Below are positions 9,901-24,645 of a stretch of DNA of 64,000 nucleotides, in pieces. The translations under genes and the position numbers were made by a program. The DNA is from Candidatus Elulimicrobium sp. (GTDB lineage Bacteria > Patescibacteriota > Minisyncoccia > Phycocordibacterales > UBA918), in the NCBI GenBank assembly GCA_022730015.1, contig DZBU01000001.1, positions 1,307 through 65,306 on the forward strand. Direction: 5' to 3'. Under the pieces are notes generated by a model. The model was not told the DNA's origin and did no database searches. It saw only the letters and a list, made by a program, of their open reading frames with translations. The first letter of the stretch is position 1; every line of letters begins with the position of its first letter.

Positions 9901-12900
9901 AGTTACACTCAAGACTTCGATGGCGCTAGTCTTTCTGGAAGTGAGCGTCAAGTTGATGTTCGCTTTGCCTCTGGTGCGAGTGCGACTTTTTCTGGGGCAA
10001 CAGTTGAAGTAATCGGAACAAGTACTGCTTCTACAACGATCGCCAACCAGGGCGCTGGTACTTACGCTGTAAATGTTAGTGGAGGCACAACAACGGCGCA
10101 GTATTATGAGTTCGCTGATCTTGGTTTAACTGGTGTAACTCTTAGTAATGCGGTACAAGTTTCTGAGCTCAGTGACGGTTCCTATACGGTTGCTGCTCCA
10201 GGGGGCACAGCACTCACGCTTTCTTCAACAACCATCGATGCGAACCCAGGCAAGCAGATATTTAACGTTACTTTTGCTACGACAACAGTTATTACGGCAA
10301 CAAACGTCACCCAAAATGATGGAGTACCGTCTTCGTTCTGGTGGTTCCGTGATGGCTACGGAAATCTCTACGGCGAGGGGTACGACAATGATACTGGCGA
10401 TCCTGGTTCAGTGCGCTTTGATGATAGTTCACTGGTGATCACTATTGTTGGTACGGTGTACAGTGATGCGGGAACGACACCTATTGTCGGTGGTACTTGT
10501 GACGGAATCACTCCGGTAGTACGAGTAATGGTTGGTGGAGTGCTTGCTACAACAACCAGCTGTAGTAATGTCGATGGTTCATACACAGCCTCTGGTGTGG
10601 TAGTGATTGGTGATCCAACTGTTACTGTTTTCCTCAATGACGCTTCGGGTGGACAAAAGGGAAGTACAATCACTCGGACACCAACTGGAGACATCCTCGA
10701 TATGGATATTTACACCAATCGTGTAATCGTTCGTAATGAAGATATTGATGCACTAACCATTGGAAACTTGGCTGCATATGATAGTAGTGATGATGCTGAC
10801 TTACGCTTCAGTGCGGCAACCTCTACTAGTGTTGATAGTTTGAATGTGTTTGCTGGCAATGAGCTCTTTGTCTTTGCTTCGTCGACTTTTACACCAGGTG
10901 GGGTAGTGACGCTCGCGGCGAATACGGCCGCCAATAGTTACGATGGTACGTTGTATCTAGCTGGTGATGCGACGTTCAACGCACACAGTACCTCGACCGT
11001 AACGATTGGCGGCCGCCTCGAACTCGAAGCTGGTGCGGTCTTCAATGCCGCGAGCACGACCGTACTTATGAACGCCACAACGTCTGGCAAGAGTATCACT
11101 GCACCGAGTGAGATTATGTTCAATGAGCTCGTCTTCAATGGGGTGAGTGGCGGTTGGAATCTAGGGGCTGACATTCGCGTGAATGGTGATATGACCATCA
11201 CAGCTGGTACGGTCACTGGTACTGGTGATATCTATCTGCCAAACGGTTCGCTCTACGGTAATGGTGTGCTTTCACTTGGTGCTGGTACAACCACGCTCGC
11301 GGCCGCTAATTCACTTGGTGGCAATAGTGCTTGGACCTTCTATGATCTTGAACTTGGAGACACGCTCCAGGTCGGTACTACCACACCACTTTTCACTAGT
11401 ACCACCACCGTCTCTGGTCGTCTTACTATCAATGCTGCTCATTATCTTGATGCTGGTAATACAAGTTGGGATCTCTCTGGAGCCGGCATCGTCTTTGTAG
11501 AGAATGGCACTTTTATCGAAGATACCAGCACGATCCGCTACAGTGGCGCCGGCGCCAGTGTGCTCGCTACTCAATATTACAACTTAGACATCAACGCTGG
11601 TGCCAGCTCACAAACCTACATCGCGACTGGTCTTGGACTTATCGTCGATAATGATCTCACGATTGGTGGTGACGCCGCATCAACATTCGATCTCGCTACC
11701 AACGATCCGCTGCTCGATGTCAATGGTGATGTGATCATTCACAGTAATGGCACTTTGGCTGCAAGCGATACGGGCACGTTCACCATTGCGGGGAGTTATG
11801 ATAATAATGGTGTTTTTACCAGTAACTCTGGAACAACTACTTTCGATGGTTCAGGTGCAACCACAATCGCTGCGGGAAGTAGCAGTTTTGGTTCGGTGCT
11901 TGTCAATGGGACTGGCAACGTGACCGTGAGTGAGCATGCAACGGCAACCAGCAACTTCACGTTAAATGCCGCCAATACCTTCACAGTCTCGAGTGGTCAG
12001 TCACTCGCGATCGGCACAAAATTCTTTAATGCGATTGGTGGTGCAGCGACCACTTGGACTGATTCGACCCTTCGTCTTTACGGTGGTGGTAACTACAGTA
12101 TCAATGTCGCAACTACCAGCGACACGTACGCTACGCTAGATATTGAAGGCACGACGCAGATACGCATGTGGAATTCTGATGCTGCTACCTACGATGTTGC
12201 TTCAACCGGTTCGCTGTACTCACAAGACCATGCCAGTGTTGATGGTGATCTGTATATCTGGGGTGCGTACAACCAAACTAATGCCAACGATTACTGGAGC
12301 TATGTGACTGACTTCGATGGTGCCGCACTAGGCAGCCCACGCAAGGTCGATGTGTACCTTGCCTCGGGTGCGAGTGTGACCGTGACTGGTGGCACCTTTG
12401 CAGTATTCGGCGGCACCACGGCATCAACAACAATCCAGAATCAGGGTTCTGGCTCATATGGAATCGTTGTTGGTGGCAATGCGTCGTCTTCGTTTGAATA
12501 TGCAGAGACGCGTGATATGAACAGCGCTGGCCTTACTTTTACTGGCGGAGCCAAGGTCAACAAACTCTCCTACAATGATTTTTCTGTTTCGCAAAACGGC
12601 GGCACCACAATTATGATCGGTGGCACTGTCATCACTGCCAATCCAGCTAAAAACTTTACTAATAATCGGTTTTGGCTTGATGGTGTTGGTAGCGGCTTCA
12701 ACGTGACAGCGACGGGTACTAGCGTCAGTTCATGGCGTTTCGTGAATCATTACGGTGACATTGACGGTGAGTCATTTGATGTAGATCCAAACGGCGACCC
12801 AGGCTACGTCGCGTGGGATAATTCTGCCGCTCTTATCACCATTTCAGGTAATGTGTACAGCGACGAGGGTTCGACTGTTTCGGGCGTTTGTGACGGAACG

Positions 12901-15900
12901 ACAGGCAATATTCGTCTGGTGGTGGCTGGACTTTCGTCTGCTACCTCAAGTTGTAATGCTAGTACCGGCTACTACCAATTCACTAATGTTGCGTACGGCC
13001 CGACCGATCCGTTGATTGTCTACATTGACGGGGAAACCGAAAAGGGAACTTCAGTCACTAAGGAACCAGTTTCTAACATCAACGATCTTCATGTTTATGA
13101 AAATCGAATTATCGTTCGACACGAAAATACCGATCCAATGACGGTCGCTGACATGGCAGTTTACGATTCATCAGATGATGCAGATGTTCCATTTACTGCA
13201 GTAGATTCTGGTACGGACACACTGACGCTTCCAACTAATCGTAAATTACTCGTCTGGACCAATAAGGAATTTGCACCAAATGGTAATGTCACGGTCAGTG
13301 GTGGTGGAGCCGGTGCAGCCTACGATGGCACTCTTGAGCTTCAAACTGGCGCGACTTGGTCTGGCTCGGGAGCTGAATCGCTAGATATTGGTGGTAGCTT
13401 ACTGGCTGGTTCTGGTGCAGCTTTTGTGTCTGCAAACAATGGTACGACAACATTTACTACGACTGGCGCTAATCGTACTATCGACCTCAATGCCGCTGAT
13501 CTCAATAATGCTGCCTTTACCGGAAGTGGCAGCTGGACGGTTACTGACACAACATTTACCGTTGGTGGCAATTTTACGCAAACTAATGGTGTCCTCACTT
13601 TCCCTACCGCAACGACAACTTTCGGTGGTTCATTACAGGTTAGCGGTGGTAGCTTTAATTCAAATAACGGAATCACCCTCTTTAACGGTAGTGGTGCTCA
13701 GGTGATTGCACTGGCTGGTTCTTCGCTGGCAGCGGTGCAGTTCGTGAGTGGTAATTACAGTTTTAGCGATACGGCAGCGACTACTACCAAGTCGATTACT
13801 ATCTTGGGTGGAACAGTAACACTCCCAAGTGGTACGCTCACTGTTGGTGGAGACTTCGAAAACGTTGCAGGCGTTATCGCACACAACACGAATGAACTTA
13901 TCATGACGAGCACAACTATCGCACTCGTGCAGGCGTCTAGTTCAGACTTATACAGTGTTCGCTTTACTGGCGGTGGTGCCTATGAATTTACCGATGATAG
14001 CATCGCGTTACTTGGTAGTCTTACAATTGATGCTGGAGCGGTGCAGCTGGCTTCGGGTACGCTTTCAATCGGTGGCACCTTTGACGCTGCTGGTGGCACA
14101 TTTGATCACGCCACTGGTACGATCCTTTTCAATTCAGCCGATGGGGGAGAGTTCGTCGATGCTGGTGTTAGTCCTTTCTATAATGTTTCATTTAGTGCAC
14201 CCGCAGGCGGATACACGCTTGTGAGTGACGCTACGACTACCAATCACTTCACCCTGTCAGCTGTGAACAGTTTCACCACCCTTAGTGGTACGACGCTGGT
14301 TGTACAAGGAGTCTTCCTCAATCAGGTTGGTGGTGCTAATACCAACTGGGCTGGTAGCACCCTAGTGCTTGATGGAGCAAATGCATACACAGTAAATACT
14401 AAAATCGCTGGCGGTGATCAGTACGATACGCTTATCGTTGGTGAAAATAGTGACATTCGATTCTGGAATTCGGCAGCTACTACGACTACAGTTAATCAAA
14501 GTGCTTCAGTGTACTCACAAGATCACGCTAGTGCTAACGGTAGCCTTTACATTTTTGGTGATTTCCATATAGGGACTACAACTGAATACTGGAGTTATGC
14601 GACTGATTTTGATGGTTCCTCACTTACTGGTAGTGAACGATTAGTAACTGTTGCACATGCAACCAACGCCACGACGTCAGTTGATGGTGGTACGCTTCGA
14701 ATAGTTGGTATTACTGGGAATGAGACGACAATCACTAATCAGGGTACTGGCACCTATGCACTCAATGTTTCGGCTGGTACCTTGTTGGCACAATATTACA
14801 AATTCCGAAATCTTAATATTGAGGGACTTGCTCTCACAGGAACTCCCGTCATATCATCACTTGCATACGGAGATTTCGAATTGGCAGTATCAGGAGGCAC
14901 ACTCATGACAGTGGCATCAACCACACTCAACGCAAACGCCTCAATGGTATTCACAGGAAATCGTTTTGCTACTACCACCGCGATCACTGGTTACAACGTA
15001 ACATTAGTTGGTTCAACGAGTAATGCGTGGACTTTTGTCTCACATACAGGCAACTTAGATGGAGAAGATTTCGACGCTGATGGTGTGACAGCTTGTGGTT
15101 CGATCCGCTGGAGTGACAGTGCGTGTCTTCTTACCCAGCAGACGAACTATCGCTGGCGCAATGATGATGGGGGGCTCGGAGTACCAAATAATGAGTGGTA
15201 TGACGCAAGCTGGGACGCCCGCACATTTATTCGTGTAAGAAATGTTGATGCTACGAGCTATACTGATGCGGTGGTGAAAGTACCGGTTACTTACGATAGT
15301 GACATGCAAGCAGACTTTGATGACCTTCGTTTCACTGCAGGCGATGGAACAACAGTGCTTTCACACTGGCTTGGTTCTTCAACGGATAGTATTGCAGCTG
15401 AAGTTTGGGTAAAGATCCCTACGCTTGCTGCTGAGAGTACGACAAACATCTTCATGTACTACAACAATCCGTCTGCTACGACGATCAGCTCGAGTACGGC
15501 AGTCTTTATTGCTGCTGACGATTTTGAAACTGGTTCACTTGCTGCCTACAGTGGTCAGACGAGTCTCTTTACCGTCGGTACCACTTTCGCCAATGACGGT
15601 GTGTATGGGCTCGATAACAGCGGTGATGAAAGTGGCAGAGCTAATACTGGTGGTATCTATCGTTTCGATCAGGTGGTTGGCCAAGGGGAAACTTTCCGCT
15701 ACGCTCAATATGTCGATACTGTCGCAGGTTCTGGCGATGAAACCTGTACACTTTTCGGTGTTCAGTCACCTGGTTCCACCAACGAAAATTATGCAGTCTG
15801 TATTGAGCAATTCGGAACAGATCGTCTATCGTTGGTCCGTGATGCGATCGATAATGACACCTCAGGTGTGGTTTTGGCTTCCACGACAGTGAGTTACGCA

Positions 15901-17424
15901 ACGGGTTGGTATACCGTGGAGGTTGATTGGGGAATTGACGACAGTTTCTTAGTCTCGCTATATGATGCCTCAGGGACTTTAGTTGCGACAACTTCCGCTA
16001 CCGATAGTAATTATTCTACTGGTGGTATTGGATTTACTTACTGGTTTCATTACGGTGGTTGGGATAGTGTCAGCTCTCGCCCAACATTAACAACGGAACC
16101 AACAATACTGCTTGGTGTAGAGCAGACTGATGGAGGCGCAACCTGGAAAGCAGCGCAAAACACTGCTGCTACTTATGATACGAGTGATGTTGCTCGACTG
16201 CGCTTCGCGATTGAAAATACCGGTCTTGCCATTGTTGATCAACAATTCCTTCTTGAGTATGCATCGATGGACAGCGCTCCAAGTTGTGAAGCGGTCGATC
16301 CAACTGCCTATATTTCAGTACCTGTACAGGCAAGTTGTGGTACTGCTCCAGTGTGTATGCAATCGTCCACGCTCATTACCAATGGTGCAGGAACGATTGA
16401 TCTTCTGACTGGGGTGGAAGGAGTGTTTGTTCCTGGCGAAGCTCGCGAAGATCCAACAAATATCACTAGCGCGATCGATATCGATCAGAATCAATACACT
16501 GAACTGGAATACGCAATCACTCCGACCACAAACGTTACTGATGAAAACCTTTGTTTCCGAGTTACCGATAATGGTGCTGAATACGATACGTATCTCCAGG
16601 TGGCTCAAATGAATCTGCGCTTCGTGCCGGTGGTCAGTACGATCACTTTGAATGATGGTCAACCGATCTCGCTCTTGCCAGGAACTACCACTAGGGTTTA
16701 TGCGACAGGTACCGTAAGTGATCTTAATGGCTATGCAGATTTGGTGTACGCGACTTCAACTATCTATCGTGGTGGTGTTGCTGGTGGAGCATCGTGTACA
16801 CCAAACAATAACAACTGTTACGTTTCTACGACAGAAACAGCGGCTTGTTCGTTTGTCGATTGTTTGGGTGAAAGTTGCACGGTCGAGTGTTTCGCTGATA
16901 TTTATTTCCACGCTGACCCAACCGATGCTGGTGATTACGTGGGACAAGAATGGTTTGCTTTTGTTGAAGTAGAGGACGCTACTGCTGGGTATGATTTTGC
17001 AACCTCACCTGGAGTGACCCTGAGCACTCTCCGAGCGATCGAAGTAAATGGTGCGATCGACTATGGTGCACTCGCGGTGAATGCTGATACTGGATCGTAC
17101 AATGCATCAACATCGATTTTAAATCTTGGTAATGTGGGAATCGATATTGAAATCACAGGTACTGATCTTTCGGACGGTCTCTCATCGGTTATTCCGGTTG
17201 ATAAGCAAAAGTTCGCTACCTCTACCTTTACGTACTCAGCCTGTGGTGCAAGTTGTGAATTGCTTTCAAGTACAACTCCAGTCTCGATTGATGTCGATCT
17301 TGGTAAACCAGCGACTGATAATCCACCAATTTCTGATGATGTCTATTGGGGTATCGCGGTACCGATCGGTGTCAGTAGTGTGCCTCACCAAGGAATTAAC
17401 GTCTTTACGCCAGTCACACCGTAA
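934..17424 (+). CDS. Giant secreted multidomain surface/adhesin-like protein (5,496 aa as tracked). The likely true start is TTG 1021, giving MQRFSSATYVLFLIFTLLVFTHA|ETAF as a signal peptide.
   Basis: Single uninterrupted ORF of 16.5 kb. It has a signal-peptide-like h-region, a P/E/V/T-rich linker, recognisable domains (see findings) and a C-terminal module shared with three other proteins in the window. Confidence 0.85.
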   Translation: MVHCVVKKKHPYNTNGNRIITIFKAPKWILQRFSSATYVLFLIFTLLVFTHAETAFSKRPLEITFGTQQTLNLFPTQVNTTDWAGIENVLIQDLTDTALYQDFGARTSAYVPQEKLIIPSSAGVPTEYVPVIEGATASSVVDGQAVPEEGGAGVIGSQPEVVAPIEPTPEQLPVETQVSPEPGAVLEPPANESVVEPVSMIEPSSTAVFAPAWGLFPLAQLSVVTSTETAAQDIVDVAAPTETAQTPDTAIVEDLSQPISGVEQVVGVVSTSSESAAPEQSSAETTVTEGSVVPLATPAAATVETEVHEITLSNFGSAPLEPGQFVNGMRLTLSLAAQLEQPASGRIPYIEVLYGASSTPEVVGMILLEDEVSNALNGGYFFFALPTVSDVSELADKTVTLRYHGAHDDLDGMFLDAVWLEIDTRTVTKEDLRARGIAGALAELQLPSVTTLISEKSNFRRDENPIFNLRYNSQRNFIVRGLRHMFGRELVSVESVEVRHRSFGSLGIEPELTVTKDGLLTIEIPDASLKNMRPGAYEITLTLNEGGREFTDTFDFQWGILTMNPNKSEYQTGETAHISIGALTPNGHTICEAALDLYVTDPTGIISRYAVNPSGQCNGNNVVDVPDFSALVPVVEPGVYELYLERLDDAGAVLGFTTDTFNSVTNQELSIERTGPTRIYPPAPYPMTLTVSTTKSFIGTLTETVPASFGIYDTDAYIVSDGVWQTLTWDLSILGAGKESVSYRFDAPDISPYLFTLGPARLDTERVAPADIPNASTSATSSPGISSPGTNVFIEHRRWQIASDAVGKMLLFWPDGATVPAGWLCVSCTSGEPFFQRFVMGSSTYNTTGGAATHTHTATGSVLATSDITTENTGSGVIAIGTHTHTYTPTISAVSNLPAYRQLRVIRYDAAAGEPPTIPAGAIGVFDVASSSLPSGWNRYAAQDGRYIYGENTPGTTGGSNTHTHTITGTVDAASGGSYQSRGPDAANGSSPTHTHTVSSSTGSVSNEPPYIEVLLGQITSDAVPPNGLIAMWDEAVDSGWLDVSSGPTDPFNQRFLKASTTYGGTNDTRSHAHSNVTGLTSSVPSVTVTTARAGSGGASDVHTHSVSVTDFSISDHLPPYLTVVFGKRQGNDPVYQQVSSRWYTNTNAETPTDAWPSGALNLIEREPITATSTPVKDGDEVRLRLNVGVLNATSTVGSSFKLQYAAAAVCSTATGWADVGDTASTTLWRGYNNTSVNDHVTLSTLLLSSSTVTATYEENGYATSTPNNIPVAGYGEWDFVLQQNGALAGTNYCFRLVENDGTAFLSYTHYPQLYTNEAPAAPALQKLFDNEKTASTTPWFYFLATDAEGEKVHYEIEIDNDFTFASPVIDRNTISNSAEFENQVLISDKAPFRQGELIEFIPTTALSNGTTYYWRVRGQDPEGSADWGEWSTIRSFTIDNTLDASAWYQTQDEQFDTNILAGVQTGSDQMVLISGSSTGSMISTPIDFTDGDRGTAWDSLVFADTETTGSISYQIQYLDNTSTWTLVPESALPGNGTGFGTSPVSLLGLDVGVYSQLRIIANFTNTGGSPSLQDWTLYWGYRVETPIIAKLFPNEQVGTTTPSFEFRTSDPQSDSLTYQIQWSLTPDFAASTTRSSDVDLGFSNIDAGADLDPFNSDDSIQFTLQSADALTGTTTYWWRVRAKDTTGDNAWSFWTDAQSFTVIPGTEVSTWFQTTEEQFASNILSGTIALASDAVSVATTASEAMIVYGEGTETAPRYRQWDGTNLSTESTLLDIGAPTRWAVVRAATTREEYVAATVGTDADVNVQVFATGEWGNQVELTTNVGSVAARGIDVAYETTSGDALVVYCDGDADPSYYLWDGTSWTSGGTINLASTNNCEWIKLASDPVSNEIILMARDSDGTVATSYELQVWNGSAWGNSTTQGGARNSAYETMALGYEASGGQALSVSGDGNPIRFEYNSWNGTAWAGLTTNTTITDNLIWAELSNDDGTDNMAMCYVNESTNIGAIRWNGTAWTGQTNLDTAGNSIADRSVSCVYETTAGRDGNLLAVYSDTTNARYQVWNGTTWSAEASIGTITSVSTIQAIRTGAGSVLGLFYDDVNDRIDFSAWNGTTWSTAATIEANGSVDAAPYGQPFFAAPRNDGTEGTTIVSPGVDFNAGVGPYWKTFSWNDTVPGTSQILYHLQYQTATGSWAFIQNAALPGNEVGTTTGPFDLSALDTNTYNVIRPYAELSCDGSGNCPSIEDWKIEWAGGITISGAIQGYDQSTNVTSGTVAVSVNGVLQTGKTGAVSGGTWSISNVTVFPGDVVSVFVTAAADSNEAVAIARYDGQGDMDGLVLYERHLTLGSNDATTTPFTNADIGLYDSTNTEDVFFAVTTDTLSVCAAGDCTDAELFIKSGAYYTPGGRIVTHDFENNGTFTAGSFTHEINGSWDNNATTTMTGSAVVFAATSTTETIDSTGAVSASFNNTTFGTTTGSGVWNLPSELDVNGNLTVSLGTLARGSTSITIGGNLVTGANGYWTGIGTTTFDGGTAATWNDQNTTKQNVGRVVIDGTSKAVSLAGNVATESVTIGTNDTFDASTGSYDIMVYDSWLNQNNFVARSGEVIFAATSSGKTITTTGDAFYDLSFTGVGGGWSFTESTLLVNNDLTIATGTVTLPTATTTIAGSFNATGGSFAHNNGTLYFTSAAAETITFNGGLFTNVAHDLTFNGGGSWTVNDTNATSTNDVRVTQGTLNFPTGVFAIGGTLVDGGGVYTGGVGTVLFYSSAAEVLTPGGSSFNNVTFAGSGSWSFSDSNVDANGDLVVQQGILTLPNGAFTLGGSYDNNATVVPGTGVLTFDAAGTGRTVDFGASSLYDVDFNSATGGWTVTAPATTTRNFSLTNTDTWTLASGQVLSVAGTFSNSVGGASTTWTGSALSLEAGSYSLNTKTNNGDTYETVRIAAGTNIAMWNSSAASYTVDAAGSLYSQDHAGIDGDLYIFGAYTRGSGTEYWSYTQDFDGASLSGSERQVDVRFASGASATFSGATVEVIGTSTASTTIANQGAGTYAVNVSGGTTTAQYYEFADLGLTGVTLSNAVQVSELSDGSYTVAAPGGTALTLSSTTIDANPGKQIFNVTFATTTVITATNVTQNDGVPSSFWWFRDGYGNLYGEGYDNDTGDPGSVRFDDSSLVITIVGTVYSDAGTTPIVGGTCDGITPVVRVMVGGVLATTTSCSNVDGSYTASGVVVIGDPTVTVFLNDASGGQKGSTITRTPTGDILDMDIYTNRVIVRNEDIDALTIGNLAAYDSSDDADLRFSAATSTSVDSLNVFAGNELFVFASSTFTPGGVVTLAANTAANSYDGTLYLAGDATFNAHSTSTVTIGGRLELEAGAVFNAASTTVLMNATTSGKSITAPSEIMFNELVFNGVSGGWNLGADIRVNGDMTITAGTVTGTGDIYLPNGSLYGNGVLSLGAGTTTLAAANSLGGNSAWTFYDLELGDTLQVGTTTPLFTSTTTVSGRLTINAAHYLDAGNTSWDLSGAGIVFVENGTFIEDTSTIRYSGAGASVLATQYYNLDINAGASSQTYIATGLGLIVDNDLTIGGDAASTFDLATNDPLLDVNGDVIIHSNGTLAASDTGTFTIAGSYDNNGVFTSNSGTTTFDGSGATTIAAGSSSFGSVLVNGTGNVTVSEHATATSNFTLNAANTFTVSSGQSLAIGTKFFNAIGGAATTWTDSTLRLYGGGNYSINVATTSDTYATLDIEGTTQIRMWNSDAATYDVASTGSLYSQDHASVDGDLYIWGAYNQTNANDYWSYVTDFDGAALGSPRKVDVYLASGASVTVTGGTFAVFGGTTASTTIQNQGSGSYGIVVGGNASSSFEYAETRDMNSAGLTFTGGAKVNKLSYNDFSVSQNGGTTIMIGGTVITANPAKNFTNNRFWLDGVGSGFNVTATGTSVSSWRFVNHYGDIDGESFDVDPNGDPGYVAWDNSAALITISGNVYSDEGSTVSGVCDGTTGNIRLVVAGLSSATSSCNASTGYYQFTNVAYGPTDPLIVYIDGETEKGTSVTKEPVSNINDLHVYENRIIVRHENTDPMTVADMAVYDSSDDADVPFTAVDSGTDTLTLPTNRKLLVWTNKEFAPNGNVTVSGGGAGAAYDGTLELQTGATWSGSGAESLDIGGSLLAGSGAAFVSANNGTTTFTTTGANRTIDLNAADLNNAAFTGSGSWTVTDTTFTVGGNFTQTNGVLTFPTATTTFGGSLQVSGGSFNSNNGITLFNGSGAQVIALAGSSLAAVQFVSGNYSFSDTAATTTKSITILGGTVTLPSGTLTVGGDFENVAGVIAHNTNELIMTSTTIALVQASSSDLYSVRFTGGGAYEFTDDSIALLGSLTIDAGAVQLASGTLSIGGTFDAAGGTFDHATGTILFNSADGGEFVDAGVSPFYNVSFSAPAGGYTLVSDATTTNHFTLSAVNSFTTLSGTTLVVQGVFLNQVGGANTNWAGSTLVLDGANAYTVNTKIAGGDQYDTLIVGENSDIRFWNSAATTTTVNQSASVYSQDHASANGSLYIFGDFHIGTTTEYWSYATDFDGSSLTGSERLVTVAHATNATTSVDGGTLRIVGITGNETTITNQGTGTYALNVSAGTLLAQYYKFRNLNIEGLALTGTPVISSLAYGDFELAVSGGTLMTVASTTLNANASMVFTGNRFATTTAITGYNVTLVGSTSNAWTFVSHTGNLDGEDFDADGVTACGSIRWSDSACLLTQQTNYRWRNDDGGLGVPNNEWYDASWDARTFIRVRNVDATSYTDAVVKVPVTYDSDMQADFDDLRFTAGDGTTVLSHWLGSSTDSIAAEVWVKIPTLAAESTTNIFMYYNNPSATTISSSTAVFIAADDFETGSLAAYSGQTSLFTVGTTFANDGVYGLDNSGDESGRANTGGIYRFDQVVGQGETFRYAQYVDTVAGSGDETCTLFGVQSPGSTNENYAVCIEQFGTDRLSLVRDAIDNDTSGVVLASTTVSYATGWYTVEVDWGIDDSFLVSLYDASGTLVATTSATDSNYSTGGIGFTYWFHYGGWDSVSSRPTLTTEPTILLGVEQTDGGATWKAAQNTAATYDTSDVARLRFAIENTGLAIVDQQFLLEYASMDSAPSCEAVDPTAYISVPVQASCGTAPVCMQSSTLITNGAGTIDLLTGVEGVFVPGEAREDPTNITSAIDIDQNQYTELEYAITPTTNVTDENLCFRVTDNGAEYDTYLQVAQMNLRFVPVVSTITLNDGQPISLLPGTTTRVYATGTVSDLNGYADLVYATSTIYRGGVAGGASCTPNNNNCYVSTTETAACSFVDCLGESCTVECFADIYFHADPTDAGDYVGQEWFAFVEVEDATAGYDFATSPGVTLSTLRAIEVNGAIDYGALAVNADTGSYNASTSILNLGNVGIDIEITGTDLSDGLSSVIPVDKQKFATSTFTYSACGASCELLSSTTPVSIDVDLGKPATDNPPISDDVYWGIAVPIGVSSVPHQGINVFTPVTP
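3300..4330 (+). repeat. Three tandem phage tail-collar (MdpB-like) domain repeats inside the giant ORF.
   Basis: Three units of the form '...P.GW(L)...C..C/...FxQRF..GxxxxYGGT...THTHT' each end in 'PPY[IL]xVL/VFG': 'PAGWLCVSCTSGEPFFQRFVMGSSTYNTTGGAATHTHT', 'LPSGWNRY...GGSNTHTHT...PPYIEVLLG', 'DSGWLDVSSGPTDPFNQRFLKASTTYGGTNDTRSHAHS...PPYLTVVFG'. Confidence 0.6.
6160..7330 (+). repeat. Seven ~50-aa 'W[ND]GTxW' repeats, a predicted 7-bladed beta-propeller, inside the giant ORF.
   Basis: YRQWDGTNL, YLWDGTSWT, QVWNGSAWG, NSWNGTAWAG, IRWNGTAWTG, YQVWNGTTWS, SAWNGTTWS occur at regular ~50-55 aa spacing. Confidence 0.5.
8070..15120 (+). repeat. Three divergent tandem intragenic super-repeats (~2.3-2.4 kb each; the third is truncated). 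Each is a PATR-like parallel beta-helix section, then a 'W[TA][GD]S.L.L.G..Y..N......Y.T..........WNS.A.......S.YSQDHA...G.LYI[FW]G' domain, then a carboxypeptidase-regulatory-like 'VYSD.G...V...CDG' domain.
   Basis: Protein-level register anchors: WTGSALSLEAG at nt ~9660, WTDSTLRLYGG at ~12052, WAGSTLVLDGA at ~14348. All three copies contain 'SLYSQDHA', and the DNA shows 'tactcacaagaccatgc' and variants. The beta-helix parts show 'NVTFAGSGSWSF...GTLTLP.G.F..GG' type ~25-aa periodicity. Confidence 0.55.
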
Positions 17425-17451: not shown

Positions 17452-19014
17452 ATGCAGCAGTTCATCAGCTTCGTTTCTCTTGTGATTCTTGTTTTTACTA
17501 ATCAGCCAGGTTTTTTGTTTGCACAAACAACAGACAAGGAAGCTCCAGATATCACCAACGTCGAGGTCTCACAAGTTTCCGAGACTAGTGTCACCGTCAC
17601 TTGGGAGACCGACGAATCTTCAGATTCAACGGTTAACTATGGTTTACAGCCTGACTACGGTATCGTCCGCATACCGGTTGCTGATCGAACACAGCACTCC
17701 ATCACGCTAGATCGGCTAGAACCTGGACGAGTCTATTATTTCCGTGTGGTGTCTGCCGACGATAGTGGTAACCAAGGAATTTCAGCTGATTATCGAGTAC
17801 AGACATCAGGTACACCGCAGACTGGTGAGGGAAGTGGTACAGGGCAGTCAACGGCTCAGGGGCAAGGACAGGGAGCAATGGCTGGTGATGGTAGTAGTAG
17901 CCAAACTCAATCTGAAACGGAATCAACGACCAGCTCACAATCACAGTCTCAAACTCAAACGACACAAGAGATCGTTGAACAGATCAATCAAATCACTGAT
18001 CCGCAGCAGCTTAAAGAGATCGTCAACGAAACCGTAAAAGCGATTCAGGGTATTACAGAGGACCTTACTATTGTTGGTCCTCCAACCGTTATTCCAGAGA
18101 CAACTACTGCGCTTGTACGCTGGACAACTGATCGAGAGGCGTCATCTAAAGTCATCTTTTCTCCATCGCGTGGTTTTGATGGAGCAACTTTTGCATACGC
18201 ACAGGAATCAACACAAGGAAACACTACTGATCATGAGGTGCAACTGATCGGACTGTCTGCCTTTACTGATTACAGTTTTAAAGTGATTTCAACCGATACC
18301 TACGGTATTACGGGTGAAAGTCGCACGTTCACCTTTCAGACAAAAGCCACCATGCCAGAAATTCGAAATTTGCGAGTGCTAAAAGTGGAAGAAGATGCAG
18401 CTACCTTGGCCTGGGATACAAACGTACCAACCAAAGCCTTGATTGAGTATCAAGATCAAACTACTGGAGAACAGCAATCAGTGGGAAGACCAACCCTTGC
18501 AACCACGCACCAGATGCGTCTGTCTAACCTAACGCTTGGTACACGTTACGTTGCTTTCGTGACTGCTGAAAACTCAGGTGGTGACCGAGTGCGAAGTCAA
18601 CCGGTCCAGTTCATTACAGTTCGTGACACCGCAGCGCCGATCATTACTAACGTGACCAATGAATCAACTCTTTTCCCGGGTGGAGAATCACGTATTCAAA
18701 CTATCGTGGCGTGGGACACCGACGAATCATCGTCGTGTCTGATGACTTATCAGGAAGGTGTCGCAGGAGGTACTGAAGCGTACACGATTGAAAAAGAACA
18801 AATATCATATAACACGAAACACGTTGAAGTGATTGTCGATTTTGCACCGGCAACGGTATACCAGTTTTATCTAACTTGTACCGATGAGGCAGGAAATGCG
18901 GTAAAGTCAGAGAATTTTGTGCTGTTCACTCCGATTCAAGAGAAGAACATCATTGACTTGATCCTAGAAAACTTCCAAAGCACATTTGGGTGGGTTAAAA
19001 ATATCGGAGGCTAA
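17452..19014 (+). CDS. Secreted protein with four fibronectin-III / purple-acid-phosphatase-N-like domains and a Q/S/T/G-rich linker.
   Basis: Signal peptide MQQFISFVSLVILVFTNQPGFLFAQT. Repeated 'VTVTWETDESSDS.V.YG...HS..L..L.PGR.YYFRV.S.D..GN' units. Confidence 0.8.
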   Translation: MQQFISFVSLVILVFTNQPGFLFAQTTDKEAPDITNVEVSQVSETSVTVTWETDESSDSTVNYGLQPDYGIVRIPVADRTQHSITLDRLEPGRVYYFRVVSADDSGNQGISADYRVQTSGTPQTGEGSGTGQSTAQGQGQGAMAGDGSSSQTQSETESTTSSQSQSQTQTTQEIVEQINQITDPQQLKEIVNETVKAIQGITEDLTIVGPPTVIPETTTALVRWTTDREASSKVIFSPSRGFDGATFAYAQESTQGNTTDHEVQLIGLSAFTDYSFKVISTDTYGITGESRTFTFQTKATMPEIRNLRVLKVEEDAATLAWDTNVPTKALIEYQDQTTGEQQSVGRPTLATTHQMRLSNLTLGTRYVAFVTAENSGGDRVRSQPVQFITVRDTAAPIITNVTNESTLFPGGESRIQTIVAWDTDESSSCLMTYQEGVAGGTEAYTIEKEQISYNTKHVEVIVDFAPATVYQFYLTCTDEAGNAVKSENFVLFTPIQEKNIIDLILENFQSTFGWVKNIGG

Positions 19015-19075
19015 GCAGACTACATCTGTGGATGGAAGAGAGTGATATTTGTGTGGGCGATGCAATAATAGGGTA

Positions 19076-20398
19076 ATGGCAAAACCACTCATTGTTGCTC
19101 GTGATCTTTCGATCATCTATAACAAAGGAAAATCAAATGAGTTTAAAGCCCTGCAGGGTGTAAATACTGATATCTATGAAGGTGAATACATCATTTTGTT
19201 CGGCCCGTCTGGTTGTGGCAAGTCGACACTTATGTACTCCATTCAAGGGTCACTTCCACCTGGTGAAGGGACACTCCTGATTAAGGGTGACGATGTGTAT
19301 TCATATCCGCCGTCAGAGCGCGTGTATTTTCAACGATATGTGATGGGAATTATTTTCCAATCTTTCAATCTTATCGGTTCGCTTTCCGTACTCGACAACG
19401 TTGCGCTACCGATGATCTTTTGTGATACCGACAAGACCACGCGCAACCGTCGCGCGCAATCACTGCTTGATCGATTTGGGGTAGGACATGTTTCTCACAA
19501 ACTTCCGGCTATGCTTTCGGGGGGTCAGCAGCAGCGTGTGTCAGTAGCTCGGTCGATGGTTAACGATCCAAAGATCCTTCTGGCTGACGAACCAACTGGA
19601 AACCTGGACTCAGTTTCAACGCAACAGGTAATGGATAAGATTGATGAGATAAATACGTTCGATCGTCGAACTATTATTATGGTGTCTCACAACGCTGCTC
19701 ACTTGAGTTACGCACACCGAGTATATTATTTGAAGGATGGTTTTATTGTCCGTGAGGTTGTTAATCCACAGCGCAAACAGATCAAACCAGTGCGCGAAGG
19801 TGAAACCATTGTGACAGAGCTTGAGCAGCTTGCTCGACTGTATCCTTATGACTCAGTGGAGACTTTACGAGTAAAGAGCATGGTAAATTTCCTGACTCAG
19901 GAGTTCACATTTGATCAGATCATTCGTATTGAACGAGCGATTGGGTTGTTTATTCAGGGACGAGTTGACCGAGATAGTCTGATCAAAAGTTTGATTCTAT
20001 CACCGGAACGCGGGGGAGTTGGTATCTCAGAGCGTGAAGCGAGGGCGATGGCAACCACGGCCGAAAAAATGATTGATCGTTCGGCTGACATCAAGCGTTT
20101 TCGTGCTCGTAAAGACAACGACAATATTTTCTTCAGTCAGCACAAACTAGCAGAACGAATGCGAGACCATTTGGTACACGAGTTCAGGATCAAGCTCACA
20201 AAAGAACAGGATGAAAACTTGATTGAACTCATTGCTGATCGCGTGACCGGTGTGGTCACTCAAGAAGAATTAAACGAACGTCTTGCAAAAGGGGTGCGAG
20301 CTCGCGGTTTGGCTTTGAGTGAAAAAGAGGCTGATACGATGACTCGTTATTTCGAGAAAATCATCGCCCAGGGAGTAGATGTGAGTTACAAGAATTAA
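19076..20398 (+). CDS. ABC transporter ATP-binding protein (MacB/FtsE/LolD-like NBD) with an unusual ~220-aa helical C-terminal extension.
   Basis: Walker A GPSGCGKST, ABC signature LSGGQQQRVSVARS, Walker B ILLADEPTGNLD, H-loop SHN. I prefer ATG 19076 (MAKPLIVARDL) over the tracked 19049 start. Confidence 0.85.
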   Translation: MAKPLIVARDLSIIYNKGKSNEFKALQGVNTDIYEGEYIILFGPSGCGKSTLMYSIQGSLPPGEGTLLIKGDDVYSYPPSERVYFQRYVMGIIFQSFNLIGSLSVLDNVALPMIFCDTDKTTRNRRAQSLLDRFGVGHVSHKLPAMLSGGQQQRVSVARSMVNDPKILLADEPTGNLDSVSTQQVMDKIDEINTFDRRTIIMVSHNAAHLSYAHRVYYLKDGFIVREVVNPQRKQIKPVREGETIVTELEQLARLYPYDSVETLRVKSMVNFLTQEFTFDQIIRIERAIGLFIQGRVDRDSLIKSLILSPERGGVGISEREARAMATTAEKMIDRSADIKRFRARKDNDNIFFSQHKLAERMRDHLVHEFRIKLTKEQDENLIELIADRVTGVVTQEELNERLAKGVRARGLALSEKEADTMTRYFEKIIAQGVDVSYKN

Positions 20399-20427
20399 TT
20401 ATTGCGCTGGTGTGCGATAATGGATGA

Positions 20428-21642
20428 GTGAGAGTGCAAGATCTAGCACAACTTTCGACACGTATGTTCAAAACCAACCCGCTACGAACGTGGTTGACGA
20501 TTTTAGGTATGGGCGTTGGTACAGGAGCAGTGGTTGTTTTGGTAGGGCTGGGGTTCGGTTTGCAGCAGATCATTCTAGAGCAGATCGTGTTCGGTGAGAC
20601 ACTGCTTTCGCTGGGGGTATCGTCGACCGGTGCTCAGGGGTTGCGACTAACTCCCGAGACAGTCGCTGAATTTGAAGCACAGGATGCAGTTCTTGATGCG
20701 GCGCCGCTCGCACGTTTCCCTGCGCTTGTCACCTATAAGGGTCTTACTGGAAACGTGTTCGTGCAAGGTGTCGAGCCACCGTATTTGCGCTTCGCTGGGG
20801 TGACAGCGGAAGCTGGGGATGTGTTTACTGACGATGATGCCGGTGACACTTCCAGTATCATGCTTTCTCCAGCGGTCTTAAAACTTTTTGGTATTGCTGA
20901 TGAGGAGGTTGCTAATTTTATTGGTCAAAAAGTATCCTTGCGACTTCTAGTGCCTGCCAATGACGGTACAGACAATGTCAATGAAATTCCAATTGATAAA
21001 GAGTACGTAGTCCGTGGTATTACCAAGGAACAGGGAGTTCTTAATGTCATGATGATGCTTCCTGAGCTTCGTAATTATGTTGCTGTTAATGAATACGAGC
21101 GGATCCAGGTACGAGTTGATTCAAATGAAAATCTACCGTTGGTTGAAAAAGCATTGATAGAGGAAGGGTATCGAGTATCCGCACTGTCAAAAACTGTTGA
21201 GCAAGCGTCAAAAATATTCCAAGGAATCCAGATCGTCTTGGCGACTTTTGGTGGTATCGCACTCATTGTGTCAGCGATCGGTATGTTCAACACGATGACC
21301 GTGACCTTGCTCGAGCGCACTAAAGAAATCGGTATTATGCGCACGATCGGTGCTTCTCCCAATGACGTAAAGTACCTGTTCGTTTCAGAATCGATCGTGG
21401 TGGGTTTTTTGGGAGGAGTGAGTGGTATTCTGATGGGGCTTACTATTGGAATTACAGTTAATTTGTTTTTGAATTTTATTGCCGGTCAATTCGGGGGACA
21501 GGCAGTAAAATTATTTTCATTTCCACTCGATTTCCTAACTTTTATTGCGCTCTTTTCAGCTGGAGTTGGTTATCTTACCGGGGTCTTTCCAGCCCGTCGA
21601 GCCTCAAAACTCAATCCGCTTGATGCTATCAAGTATGAATAG
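20428..21642 (+). CDS. ABC transporter permease, FtsX/MacB-like, with one N-terminal TM helix, a large extracytoplasmic domain and a 3-TM FtsX C-terminal domain.
   Basis: It directly follows the NBD gene. The N-terminal TM is LRTWLTILGMGVGTGAVVVLVGL. The C-terminus 'IALIVSAIGMFNTMTVTLLERTKEIGIMRTIGAS' is a typical FtsX motif region. Confidence 0.8.
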   Translation: MRVQDLAQLSTRMFKTNPLRTWLTILGMGVGTGAVVVLVGLGFGLQQIILEQIVFGETLLSLGVSSTGAQGLRLTPETVAEFEAQDAVLDAAPLARFPALVTYKGLTGNVFVQGVEPPYLRFAGVTAEAGDVFTDDDAGDTSSIMLSPAVLKLFGIADEEVANFIGQKVSLRLLVPANDGTDNVNEIPIDKEYVVRGITKEQGVLNVMMMLPELRNYVAVNEYERIQVRVDSNENLPLVEKALIEEGYRVSALSKTVEQASKIFQGIQIVLATFGGIALIVSAIGMFNTMTVTLLERTKEIGIMRTIGASPNDVKYLFVSESIVVGFLGGVSGILMGLTIGITVNLFLNFIAGQFGGQAVKLFSFPLDFLTFIALFSAGVGYLTGVFPARRASKLNPLDAIKYE

Positions 21643-23696: not shown

Positions 23697-24644
23697 ATGG
23701 TTAAAATCCTGCGTAATCTCCTGATGATTGTTCTTCTAATGCCAGTGCTTTTTGTGAGCCTTGGTGTCACAGAAGTATTTGCCGGTTTCGGAATTACGCC
23801 TCCTTATGTTAGTAATACTAGCCTGACTAGAAATTCTACTTACGAACAGCAAGTCCTTCTAGTTCGTAGTGAAACTAACATTTCGCAGAAAGCGGAAATT
23901 ACTATTGATGCACCTGAGATACAAGATTGGATTCAAATTGTTGAAGGTGATGTCATCAAGATGCCTCGAGGTGAACAAAAGGTCCCAATGACCGTCCGTA
24001 TCACGGTACCTGAGGATGCTGAATTCAAGGATTATAAAGGAGCTATCCGTATCAGAACACTTCCTGATGACGATCAGGTTGCGCCTGGTGCAGTTAGTAT
24101 TTCTCTTGGTGCTCTGGTCGATATTGATCTGTCAGTCATTGATCGAAAGATCTTTGATTTTAGTGTGCGTAAGATCTCAGCTGCTGACCTCAATGAAGGA
24201 CATAAGCTTTTCTGGTTGTTCTTCCCTGGAAAGATCAATTTCGATATGATGATTGAGAATACGGGTAACGTCGATATTGTTCCGAGTAAAGTAGAATTCC
24301 GTATCTTTGATCGAGCTGGGAAGGTGTTGCTCGAAGAAACAAAGAATATTGGTAAAATCAAAAAGATTAAACCGTACGCCACGGAAACGGTGACGGCAGA
24401 ACTCCCAACCCGTTTACCCGCAGGTAGTTATGTGGCACGTTACCGAGTCTTCAACGGTGAGGATGTCAAACATGAAGGTGATATTAGTTTAAATATTCTT
24501 GCGGCGGGTACATTAGAGACTGCTAATTTCGGTTTTGCTGGACTCTCAATTGCTCATAAGGTATCAGTCTTGCTGCCTGTGTTTGCTCTTATCATTGCTG
24601 CAATCTATATCTGGCACATGCGTCGTCGATCATCAAGAAGGTAG
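23697..24644 (+). CDS. DUF916-like cell-surface protein: signal peptide, ~270-aa ectodomain, C-terminal TM helix and a short basic tail.
   Basis: N-terminus MVKILRNLLMIVLLMPVLFVSLGVTEVFA. The ectodomain starts 'GFGITPPYV...' in the same pattern as the 38900 and 39894 proteins. C-terminus VSVLLPVFALIIAAIYIWHMRRRSSRR. Confidence 0.65.
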   Translation: MVKILRNLLMIVLLMPVLFVSLGVTEVFAGFGITPPYVSNTSLTRNSTYEQQVLLVRSETNISQKAEITIDAPEIQDWIQIVEGDVIKMPRGEQKVPMTVRITVPEDAEFKDYKGAIRIRTLPDDDQVAPGAVSISLGALVDIDLSVIDRKIFDFSVRKISAADLNEGHKLFWLFFPGKINFDMMIENTGNVDIVPSKVEFRIFDRAGKVLLEETKNIGKIKKIKPYATETVTAELPTRLPAGSYVARYRVFNGEDVKHEGDISLNILAAGTLETANFGFAGLSIAHKVSVLLPVFALIIAAIYIWHMRRRSSRR

Positions 24645-24645
24645 T

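What the first reader, a model, noticed from the sequence alone, without database searches (positions are those of the whole stretch)
17030..17424. Shared WxL-like C-terminal module on four secreted proteins
Four proteins end with a related ~120-aa module: 934..17424, 21746..23602, 26030..27148 and 33372..38894. Motif 1 is 'ILNLGNVGIDIEITG', 'AQNVGNTGLDQEIVG', 'IVTNARNGFVVTVTA' and 'VTTNATEGYQLLMYA' (compare the WxL domain 'V.D.RG...GW.L.V'). Motif 2 is 'VYWGIAVPI', 'TYWGIAVPI', 'TLTYVATPVF' and 'SIVYMSIPVF' (compare the WxL 'LTW.L..AP'). Several copies also have a central 'HWGL'/'GWSSG' Trp motif. In Firmicutes the WxL domain mediates non-covalent peptidoglycan attachment of cell-surface-complex proteins. 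A divergent version in which the first Trp is replaced, in a CPR-like genome, would be a new variant of that anchoring system.
Basis: partly seen in the sequence, partly recalled or inferred. Interest (0 to 1): 0.75.

Follow-up and report, generated by a model that had tools for sequence, protein, structure and literature searches.

The report
Pilus-like docking modules with WxLIP chaperones
The four secreted proteins carry two different C-terminal Ig-like modules rather than one, and each pair sits beside a membrane-anchored relative of the Firmicute WxL-interacting protein. The locus therefore looks like two chaperone-assisted surface-fibre systems of the recently described CPR "Pam pilus" kind, not a plain cell-wall anchor.

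Summary
The quoted motifs are all present, but they define two modules, not one. A and B share one module (blastp E=2e-28). C and D share another (blastp 2e-10; profile-profile E=3e-47). Profile comparisons between A/B, C/D and genuine WxL domains score no better than comparisons with unrelated Ig domains. No member of either family hits Pfam WxL (0 of 213).

The C/D module is a distant relative of the NCBIfam "CPR_Pam_pilin_C" domain. All 34 D-type and 37 of 77 C-type sequences hit it, but below its cut-off. C also folds as a Pam-type pilin: signal peptide, nine-strand N-terminal domain, conserved linker, C-terminal domain.

Three paralogous genes lie directly downstream of B and D. They are true homologues of Firmicute WxLIP (DUF916-DUF3324-TM): hhalign 97.6%, E=3e-12, and one passes Pfam's threshold for PF06030. 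The order large protein, small protein, WxLIP-like gene recurs for both modules in other Patescibacteria.

Small A/B-type proteins also carry a conserved mature N-terminal strand that the giant ones lack.

Most likely the modules are subunit-docking (donor-strand acceptor) domains of chaperone-assisted fibres, with the giant proteins as distal adhesins. This is a new variant of a known kind.

The parts
934..17424 (+). Protein A, a 5496-aa giant secreted protein and candidate distal adhesin. It has a signal-like N-terminus, an Ig_Rha78A_N domain, a DUF2341 domain and repeated 'YCFRV' modules. It lacks the N-terminal strand motif of the small subunits.
   Evidence: the 7750-aa orthologue in Kaiserbacteria CP060228.1 occupies the same position
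16915..17424 (+).
   Evidence: HMM domain 5350-5516 of the ORF; blastp to B E=2e-28
21746..23602 (+). Protein B, 618 aa, the small A/B-type subunit with a signal anchor and Ig-like middle region.
   Evidence: the 627-aa orthologue is syntenic in L001
21893..21931 (+). Mature N-terminal strand of B, 'TATTTLTVLNTPP', a candidate donor strand (N-terminal extension).
   Evidence: The motif [ST]T.V.V.N..P occurs in 12 of 22 small complete family members and in 0 of 21 giants. It occurs only 16 times in about 289,000 residues.
23030..23602 (+). A/B-type C-terminal module of B.
23697..24644 (+). ch1, a WxLIP-like protein with a signal peptide, two Ig-like domains and a C-terminal TM helix. It lies directly downstream of B.
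   Evidence: blastp to ch2 4.6e-5 and to ch3 1.3e-5; chaperone-family HMM E=2e-64; TM segments
26030..27148 (+). Protein C, 372 aa, a Pam-type two-domain pilin candidate. Signal peptide 1-37, nine-strand N-terminal domain 43-182, linker 183-195, C-terminal domain 196-372.
   Evidence: AF2 pLDDT 87.6; more than 1397 homologues, 63-85% identical among the best 120; 37 of 77 hit NF058581
26576..26614 (+). Interdomain linker of C, 'ISTVNVTASVDTL', a candidate donated strand. Hydrophobic positions are conserved in alternation, and the segment is coil in the monomer model.
   Evidence: in PamA/B the donated linker is among the most conserved regions (bioRxiv 10.64898/2026.03.03.709456)
26600..27148 (+). 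C/D-type C-terminal module of C (Pam-pilin-C-like).
   Evidence: HMM domain 195-376; hhalign C versus D families E=2.9e-47
33372..38894 (+). Protein D, 1840 aa, a large secreted protein and candidate tip adhesin of the C/D system.
   Evidence: orthologues of 1400-2150 aa lie upstream of ch2 in 33 genomes
38355..38894 (+). C/D-type C-terminal module of D.
   Evidence: NF058581 CPR_Pam_pilin_C E=4.7e-5 covering profile positions 3-148 of 148; 34 of 34 D-type modules hit it, best 1.1e-11
38900..39925 (+). ch2, a WxLIP-like protein (signal peptide, two Ig-like domains, C-terminal TM helix), directly downstream of D.
   Evidence: blastp to ch3 3.5e-13 over 298 aa; hhalign of the family versus Firmicute WxLIP E=3.3e-12; conserved D-ch2-ch3 triad
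39873..41522 (+). ch3, a WxLIP-like protein with a second TM helix and a C-terminal LytR_C domain. The start is taken from the public gene call; the ORF could start between 39807 and 39933.
   Evidence: Pfam PF06030 WxLIP_PGBD 27.5 bits against a cut-off of 27.3, and LytR_C 2e-8; about 15 of the listed orthologues carry PF06030; gene call in L046

Best explanation
The window, from a Paceibacteria/Kaiserbacteria-like CPR genome, holds two paralogous chaperone-assisted surface-fibre or adhesin systems. They are of the kind described in 2026 as the CPR 'Pam pilus', and their chaperones are homologues of the Firmicute WxL-interacting protein WxLIP.

Each system has three parts: a giant secreted protein (A or D), a small secreted subunit (B or C), and one or two membrane-anchored two-Ig-domain proteins (ch1; ch2 and ch3).

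The shared C-terminal modules are Ig-like subunit-docking domains, most likely incomplete folds whose groove accepts a beta-strand. After Sec export, the membrane-anchored WxLIP-like protein would cap the module by strand complementation. A strand from the next subunit would then replace it. That strand would be the interdomain linker in C, as in PamA/B, and the mature N-terminal 'TT.V.V.N..P' strand in B-type subunits, as in classical chaperone-usher pilins.

The giant proteins lack the donor strand. They would therefore sit at the distal end as adhesins, on a stalk of C or B subunits.

Shown here:
- the two module families and their strictly C-terminal position;
- WxLIP homology of ch1-3;
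- conserved gene order;
- the sub-threshold match of C/D to the Pam pilin C domain;
- the Pam-like two-domain fold of C;
- the N-terminal strand restricted to small subunits.

Inferred: strand exchange itself, the order of subunits, and the roles of the MacB-type ABC pair and the cohesin/dockerin proteins in the locus.
For: 1. C/D module and Pam. NF058581 CPR_Pam_pilin_C is hit by D (E=4.7e-5, full profile), by 34 of 34 D-type modules (best 1.1e-11) and by 37 of 77 C-type proteins (best 6.3e-7). No other family recurs.

2. Fold of C. AF2 (pLDDT 87.6) gives a nine-strand N-terminal sandwich, a linker and a C-terminal domain. This matches the PamA/B description. The linker 182-200 has alternating invariant hydrophobic residues and is coil in the monomer.

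3. Chaperone candidates. ch1-3 are paralogues with a signal peptide and a TM helix after about 275 aa. Their family aligns to genuine WxLIP at hhalign 97.6%, E=3.3e-12, over 258 columns spanning both domains. ch3 passes the PF06030 gathering score. The best PDB sequence hits of the family profile are EfmWxLIP1, 9i25/9i1y. PamC/D are described as PapD-like chaperones with a C-terminal TM helix. WxLIP is predicted to insert a strand into WxL (PMC10599100).

4. Gene order. D-type protein, ch2, ch3 occurs in 33 of 34 species genomes. A large A/B-type protein, a small A/B-type protein and a chaperone-like gene occur in that order in the distant locus L044. A small A/B-type protein followed by a chaperone-like gene also occurs in L045 and L048 (E 1e-14 to 1e-19). 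The whole locus is syntenic in CP060228.1.

6. N-terminal strand motif. Present in 12 of 22 small subunits and in 0 of 21 giants.
Against: - No oligomer or chaperone complex could be modelled, so strand exchange is untested.
- All Pam-model scores lie below NCBI's cut-off (20-23 bits for D against 55).
- I identified no clear PamT, PamE or PamR equivalent. Only 2 of 34 D-type modules weakly hit the PamT model.
- C is 63-85% identical across genera. That is unusually conserved for an exposed pilin and would also fit a sheath or S-layer-like protein.
Confidence: 0.6

Rival explanations
1. One reading: the modules are divergent WxL domains whose job is non-covalent attachment of the proteins to peptidoglycan. 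The WxLIP-like proteins would stabilise them on the wall, as proposed for Firmicutes.
For: WxLIP homologues lie adjacent. The grammar of large protein, small protein and WxLIP is that of WxL clusters (PMC10599100). C/D resemble WxL at motif level in three blocks, in the same order. hhalign with a low mact setting aligns C/D and WxL over 152 columns with the motifs in register (E=0.007).
Against: Pfam WxL is hit by 0 of 213 sequences. Profile-profile scores equal those of decoys. The Trp residues of both WxL motifs are replaced. Genuine WxL proteins do not hit the Pam model. No LPXTG partner or sortase is in the locus. The nearest named family, Pam, forms free filaments by strand exchange. The two readings are not mutually exclusive, because WxL itself may work by strand complementation.
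Confidence: 0.15
2. The modules are C-terminal sorting or retention domains, analogous to the T9SS C-terminal domain or to S-layer anchoring domains. A membrane machine, perhaps the MacB-type ABC pair with the WxLIP-like proteins, would recognise them to export or tether giant adhesins. No filament would form.
For: The position is strictly at the extreme C-terminus in 2277 representative clusters, many on proteins of 5000-7700 aa. A conserved ABC ATPase and MacB/FtsX permease lie between A and B. The partners are membrane-anchored.
Against: The ABC pair is not part of the minimal A/B clusters in L044, L045 or L048, nor of the D-ch2-ch3 triad. C matches the architecture of a proven filament subunit. 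The donor-like N-terminal strand restricted to small subunits has no role in a pure sorting model.
Confidence: 0.15
3. The four-way resemblance is only the generic sequence pattern of terminal beta-strands in extracellular Ig-like domains. A/B and C/D would then be unrelated domains with unrelated functions that happen to be neighbours.
Against: Each family is independently coupled to its own paralogue of the same WxLIP-like protein, in several lineages. This argues for a common mode of action even if the modules themselves cannot be shown to be homologous.
Confidence: 0.1

Closest known systems
Pam pilus of Candidatus Mycosynbacter amalyticus (PamA/PamB pilins, PamC/PamD chaperones; Troman et al., bioRxiv 10.64898/2026.03.03.709456; NCBIfam NF058581, NF058579)
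   Same: Restricted to CPR bacteria. C has a signal peptide, a nine-strand N-terminal domain, a conserved linker and a C-terminal Ig-like domain, and is about 34 kDa mature (PamB is 38.7 kDa). The C/D module hits the Pam pilin C model over its full length. The same operon encodes membrane-anchored two-Ig-domain proteins with a C-terminal TM helix. There is no usher and no sortase.
   Different: Scores lie far below the NCBIfam cut-off. The lineage is Paceibacteria (Kaiserbacteria/Nomurabacteria), whereas the preprint reports mainly Saccharimonadia and Microgenomatia. The module also sits on proteins of 1840-2150 aa. No clear PamT, PamE or PamR was found. The locus contains a second, unannotated module family (A/B), a MacB-type ABC pair and cohesin/dockerin proteins. 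No ATP synthase genes are nearby.
WxL / Csc cell-surface clusters of Lactobacillales and Listeria (small WxL, large WxL, WxLIP = DUF916-DUF3324-TM, LPXTG CscD)
   Same: The WxLIP homologue is demonstrable (E=3e-12; PF06030). There is a small and a large secreted protein sharing a C-terminal domain, with genes adjacent. WxLIP is predicted to insert a strand into its partner. C/D show motif-level likeness to both WxL motifs.
   Different: There is no significant match to the WxL domain itself, and the Trp residues of the motifs are replaced. There is no LPXTG partner or sortase. The large proteins are much bigger. ch3 carries an extra TM helix and a LytR_C domain.
Classical and archaic chaperone-usher pili (Pap/Fim, Csu, CupE/SCPU)
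   Different: The host is monoderm, with no outer-membrane usher. The chaperone is membrane-anchored. The subunits are multi-domain and the adhesins are giant. No sequence similarity is detectable.

Membership tests
WxL domain (Pfam PF13731) | Match to the family HMM | tested here: not met
   0 of 77 C-type, 0 of 34 D-type and 0 of 102 A/B-type sequences, and none of the four window proteins, at E<=10. HMMER's speed filters may hide very weak matches.
WxL domain (Pfam PF13731) | Two Trp-x-Leu motifs, the distal one within YxxxLTWxLxxxP | tested here: not met
   C has 'GFVV' and 'YTATLTYVATP'. D has 'GYQL' and 'YQTSIVYMSIP'. A/B have 'GIDI'/'GLDQ' and 'Y.G.NTFTA'. The spacing is similar to WxL but both Trp residues are replaced.
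WxL domain (Pfam PF13731) | Profile-profile similarity to genuine WxL domains | tested here: not met
   hhalign scores are 20.2 (C/D) and 17.0 (A/B), against 10-21.7 for decoy Ig domains. The WxL profile was built from only 13 plasmid-borne sequences, so a deeper profile could change this.
WxL cluster (at least one WxLIP plus two proteins sharing the C-terminal domain, within four genes) | Adjacent WxLIP (DUF916-DUF3324-TM helix) | tested here: met
   hhalign 97.6%, E=3.3e-12, 258 columns; PF06030 at 27.5 bits against a cut-off of 27.3; TM helix after about 275 aa
WxL cluster | Small and large secreted proteins with the same C-terminal domain in one cluster | tested here: met
   The pairs are A with B, and C with D. 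The same order is seen in L044 and in 33 D-ch2-ch3 loci. C and D are six genes apart.
WxL cluster | Non-covalent peptidoglycan binding | not testable with these tools
   Needs recombinant protein and cell-wall pull-down.
Pam pilus pilin (NCBIfam NF058581 CPR_Pam_pilin_C) | HMM score above the curated cut-off (55 bits) | tested here: not met
   D scores 20-23.5 bits and C alone gives no hit. At family level, 34 of 34 D-type (best E 1.1e-11) and 37 of 77 C-type sequences hit it. These are remote relatives, not members by NCBI's rule.
Pam pilus pilin | Signal peptide, nine-strand N-terminal beta-sandwich, linker strand and C-terminal Ig-like domain | tested here: met
   In the AF2 model of C, nine strands span residues 43-182, the linker is 183-195 and the C-terminal domain is 196-372, compared with the description. 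This does not apply to A, B or D.
Pam pilus pilin | Assembly by donor-strand exchange of the linker into the next subunit's C-terminal domain | not testable with these tools
   Only indirect evidence is available: the linker is highly conserved, has alternating hydrophobic residues, and is unpaired in the monomer.
Pam pilus system | Operon-encoded PapD-like chaperones with a C-terminal TM helix | tested here: inconclusive
   The architecture is met by ch1-3.
Pam pilus system | Restricted to CPR bacteria | tested here: met
   All named homologues of C, ch1-3 and D are from Patescibacteria.
Chaperone-usher pili | Outer-membrane usher | tested here: not met
   No usher-like gene is in the window or in syntenic loci.

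The most novel reading that the evidence does not exclude
Firmicute WxL/Csc clusters and CPR Pam pili are two branches of one ancient monoderm fibre system that has a chaperone but no usher, with WxLIP equivalent to PamC/D. The A/B module found here, in about 2300 clusters at 50% identity and often on proteins of 5000-7700 aa, would be a third, unannotated branch using a classical N-terminal donor strand. Giant CPR 'orphan' surface proteins would then be tip adhesins of such fibres. WxL proteins of lactic acid bacteria and enterococci would be pilus-like polymers rather than simple wall-bound proteins.
Probability: 0.3. Interest if true: 0.8.

Novelty: new variant of a known kind. Interest (0 to 1): 0.6.

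Why it matters
CPR bacteria are thought to live attached to host cells, yet most of their giant surface proteins have no annotation.

If the reading is right, it assigns a role to two very common C-terminal modules. C has more than 1397 close homologues and the A/B module about 2300 representative clusters. The role would be docking onto chaperone-assembled fibres.

It would also extend the newly described Pam pilus to Paceibacteria and to giant adhesins.

Finally, it connects the Pam pilus, through demonstrable WxLIP homology, to the long-unresolved WxL surface clusters of enterococci, listeriae and lactobacilli. The function of those clusters is still described only as peptidoglycan binding. 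The Pam preprint does not mention WxL or DUF916.

Tried and rejected
- **PDB sequence searches.** Searches with C, the D C-terminus, the B C-terminus, ch2, ch3 and the profiles A2 and A3 gave nothing meaningful. Only the chaperone profile A5 put EfmWxLIP1 on top, and weakly (E=0.07).
- **AFDB.** afdb50 would have held WxL models, but it was not installed.
- **hhalign across families.** The apparent E-values of 0.007-0.09 looked encouraging, but a decoy test with unrelated Ig domains gave the same scores, so I discarded them. A column-shuffle null timed out.
- **NCBIfam on genuine WxL proteins.** No Pam hit.
- **NCBIfam and Pfam on the A/B family.** No recurrent family.
- **Weak Pfam hits rejected as chance.** The 'Tad' hit on B's N-terminus is just the hydrophobic anchor. 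DUF680 and fn3_5 hits on C were also rejected.
- **FN3 protein 17452..19014 as a PamR equivalent.** Rejected, because it has four FN3 domains and no C-terminal TM helix.
- **Look-ups of two window proteins by exact sequence.** These failed.
- **PamC/PamD sequences.** I could not retrieve them.

Full report
**Observation**

The four ORFs exist as described: A 934..17424 (5496 aa), B 21746..23602 (618 aa), C 26030..27148 (372 aa) and D 33372..38894 (1840 aa). All the quoted peptide strings are present at their C-termini. Each protein has an N-terminal hydrophobic signal or anchor segment, and none has a C-terminal TM helix or LPXTG motif.

Pairwise blastp of the last 220 residues splits them into two pairs. 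A and B align at E=2e-28 (33% identity over 215 aa). C and D align at E=2e-10 (28% over 181 aa). Every cross-pair has E>1. An HMM census of all window ORFs finds no further copies.

**The C/D module**

C has more than 1397 homologues. The best 120 are 63-85% identical, come from Kaiserbacteria, Nomurabacteria and other Parcubacteria, and are all unnamed.

I extracted D-type C-termini from 33 species genomes. With these, the C and D families align by hhalign at 100% probability, E=2.9e-47, over 175 columns.

The only recurrent database family is NCBIfam NF058581, 'CPR_Pam_pilin_C':
- D hits it at E=5.7e-4 to 4.7e-5 over the whole 148-position profile.
- 34 of 34 D-type modules hit it (best 1.1e-11).
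- 37 of 77 C-type proteins hit it (best 6.3e-7).
- All scores lie below the curated 55-bit cut-off.

The model refers to the Pam pilus of Ca. Mycosynbacter amalyticus (bioRxiv 10.64898/2026.03.03.709456). In that system:
- the pilins have a nine-strand N-terminal sandwich, a linker strand that is donated to the neighbouring subunit, and a truncated Ig-like C-terminal domain;
- the chaperones PamC/D are PapD-like and anchored by a C-terminal TM helix;
- there is no usher.

The AF2 model of C (pLDDT 87.6) reproduces that architecture: nine strands in 43-182, an unpaired linker at 183-195, and a C-terminal domain at 196-372. The stretch 182-200 shows alternating invariant hydrophobic residues and is among the most conserved parts of the family. 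The same is reported for the donated linker of PamA/B.

**The A/B module**

A profile search of 1.84 billion representatives finds 2277 clusters (1002 at E<=1e-30). The module is almost always at the extreme C-terminus, on proteins from about 300 to 7696 aa. No Pfam or NCBIfam family recurs.

**Is it one module, and is it WxL?**

No member of either family hits Pfam WxL.

I obtained 12 annotated WxL-domain proteins, one unannotated putative one, and seven WxLIPs from Enterococcus, Lactococcus and Lactiplantibacillus plasmids. hhalign gives C/D versus WxL 20.2, A/B versus WxL 17.0, and A/B versus C/D 23.4. Comparisons with unrelated Ig-like domains (the C N-terminal domain and the two chaperone domains) give 10-21.7. 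There is therefore no signal above decoys. Genuine WxL proteins do not hit the Pam model.

By eye, C/D resemble WxL in three blocks in the same order. One is 'VTNARN-GFVVTVTADGQL' against 'VTDNRGSNAGWRLSVKQNGQF'. Another is a central G.G.W block. The third is 'DYTATLTYVATP' against 'YTTTLTWVLSDTP'. I treat this as a lead only.

'YWGIAVP' is the penultimate strand, and the terminal strand of A/B is 'Y.G.NTFTAV'.

**The neighbours decide the matter**

Directly downstream of B lies ch1 (23697..24644). Directly downstream of D lie ch2 (38900..39925) and ch3 (about 39873..41522).

They are paralogues: ch2 and ch3 align at 3.5e-13 over 298 aa, ch1 and ch2 at 4.6e-5, and ch1 and ch3 at 1.3e-5. Each has a signal peptide and a TM helix after about 275 residues. 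ch3 passes Pfam's gathering score for PF06030, WxLIP_PGBD/DUF916, as do about 15 of its listed orthologues.

The family profile aligns to the genuine Firmicute WxLIP alignment with 97.6% probability, E=3.3e-12, over 258 columns covering both Ig domains. Its best PDB sequence hits are EfmWxLIP1.

WxLIP is the third obligatory component of WxL clusters, together with a small and a large WxL protein. It is predicted to insert a strand into WxL (PMC10599100).

**Conservation of the grammar**

- D-type protein, ch2, ch3 is found in 33 of 34 species genomes.
- The whole 40-kb locus is syntenic in the complete Kaiserbacteria genome CP060228.1.
- In the distant locus L044, a large A/B-type protein and a small A/B-type protein are followed by a chaperone-like gene. 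In L045 and L048, a small A/B-type protein is followed by one as well (E 1e-14 to 1e-19). A further contig, for which no DNA was available, shows a large gene directly before the small one.

So each module type travels with its own WxLIP-like paralogue.

**A donor strand for the A/B system**

Complete small A/B-type proteins carry '[ST]T.V.V.N..P' immediately after the signal peptide. In B this is 'TATTTLTVLNTPP'. The motif occurs in 12 of 22 small proteins and in 0 of 21 giant ones. It occurs only 16 times in about 289,000 residues overall.

This is the pattern expected if small subunits donate an N-terminal strand and giant proteins only accept one, so that the giants sit at the tip.

**Conclusion**

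The finding is real but composite. There are two distinct Ig-like C-terminal docking modules. One is a remote Pam-pilin C domain and the other is unannotated. Each is coupled to WxLIP-type membrane-anchored proteins.

The best explanation is a pair of Pam-like, usher-less, chaperone-assisted fibre or adhesin systems (confidence about 0.6). The WxL interpretation fails at domain level but is right about the kind of gene cluster. Strand exchange, subunit order and any peptidoglycan binding remain untested.

The link between Pam and WxL systems through WxLIP is not mentioned in the Pam preprint. It is the most interesting lead, and PamC/D sequences are needed to confirm it.

Noticed in passing
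L003 3516-5792; L005 5170-5757; L007 5124-5822; L009 7717-8352 (Firmicute plasmids): The N-terminal ~60 residues of genuine WxL proteins (signal peptide plus an 'SNGxITF' strand and a Pro-rich linker) hit NCBIfam NF053819, the small LPXTG protein of the same clusters (E down to 8e-7). A strand shared between the WxL proteins and the wall-anchored partner would fit a donor-strand and terminator logic in WxL clusters.
   Followed up: no
window 24640..25752, 27264..28310, 28320..30080, 30779..31522: Cohesin- and dockerin-type proteins lie inside the locus. One has DUF4215 Cys-rich repeats, Big_6 and a dockerin. Two are paralogous cohesin-like proteins with C-terminal TM helices (E=9e-18). One has a cohesin plus a dockerin/EF-hand. 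They are conserved in Kaiserbacteria (L001) and suggest a cohesin-dockerin tethering layer in a CPR bacterium.
   Followed up: partly
window 17452..21642: A 4xFN3 secreted protein and a MacB-type ABC pair lie between A and B. The pair consists of an ATPase with a long C-terminal extension and a MacB_PCD/FtsX permease. They are syntenic in CP060228.1 but absent from the minimal A/B clusters L044, L045 and L048. Their role is unknown.
   Followed up: partly
window 39873..41522: ch3 is a WxLIP-like protein extended by a second TM helix and a LytR_C domain (E=2e-8). This fusion is conserved in hundreds of Patescibacteria and is sometimes annotated only as 'LytR C-terminal domain-containing protein'.
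   Followed up: partly
window 934..17424 and 33372..38894: A and D share repeated modules ending in 'Y[CY]FR[VL]..N.G'. A also has DUF2341 and Ig_Rha78A_N domains. The many 100-170-aa ORFs on the minus strand inside A and D are almost certainly not genes.
   Followed up: no
window 38355..38894 and alignment A7: D-type modules have two invariant cysteines ('GC...ATGCFGYH') and C has two nearly invariant cysteines in its N-terminal domain (C108, C128). These are likely disulfides, as reported for PamA/B.
   Followed up: no
CP069367.1 102183-102474 (hit H1): A plasmid labelled Klebsiella pneumoniae carries an unannotated stretch 74% identical at protein level to E. faecium WxLIP1. The host label is odd and the record may be mis-assigned.
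   Followed up: no
L010, L012, L017, L024, L029, L035, L036, L039, L041, L042: MAGs titled 'uncultured Candidatus Saccharibacteria' carry the same D-ch2-ch3 triad, at 35-69% ch2 identity, as Kaiserbacteria and Nomurabacteria genomes. The taxonomic labels of these TPA assemblies may be unreliable.
   Followed up: no
L032 1..9996: Two large C/D-module proteins lie in tandem upstream of ch2. The number of large adhesins per cluster therefore varies.
   Followed up: no
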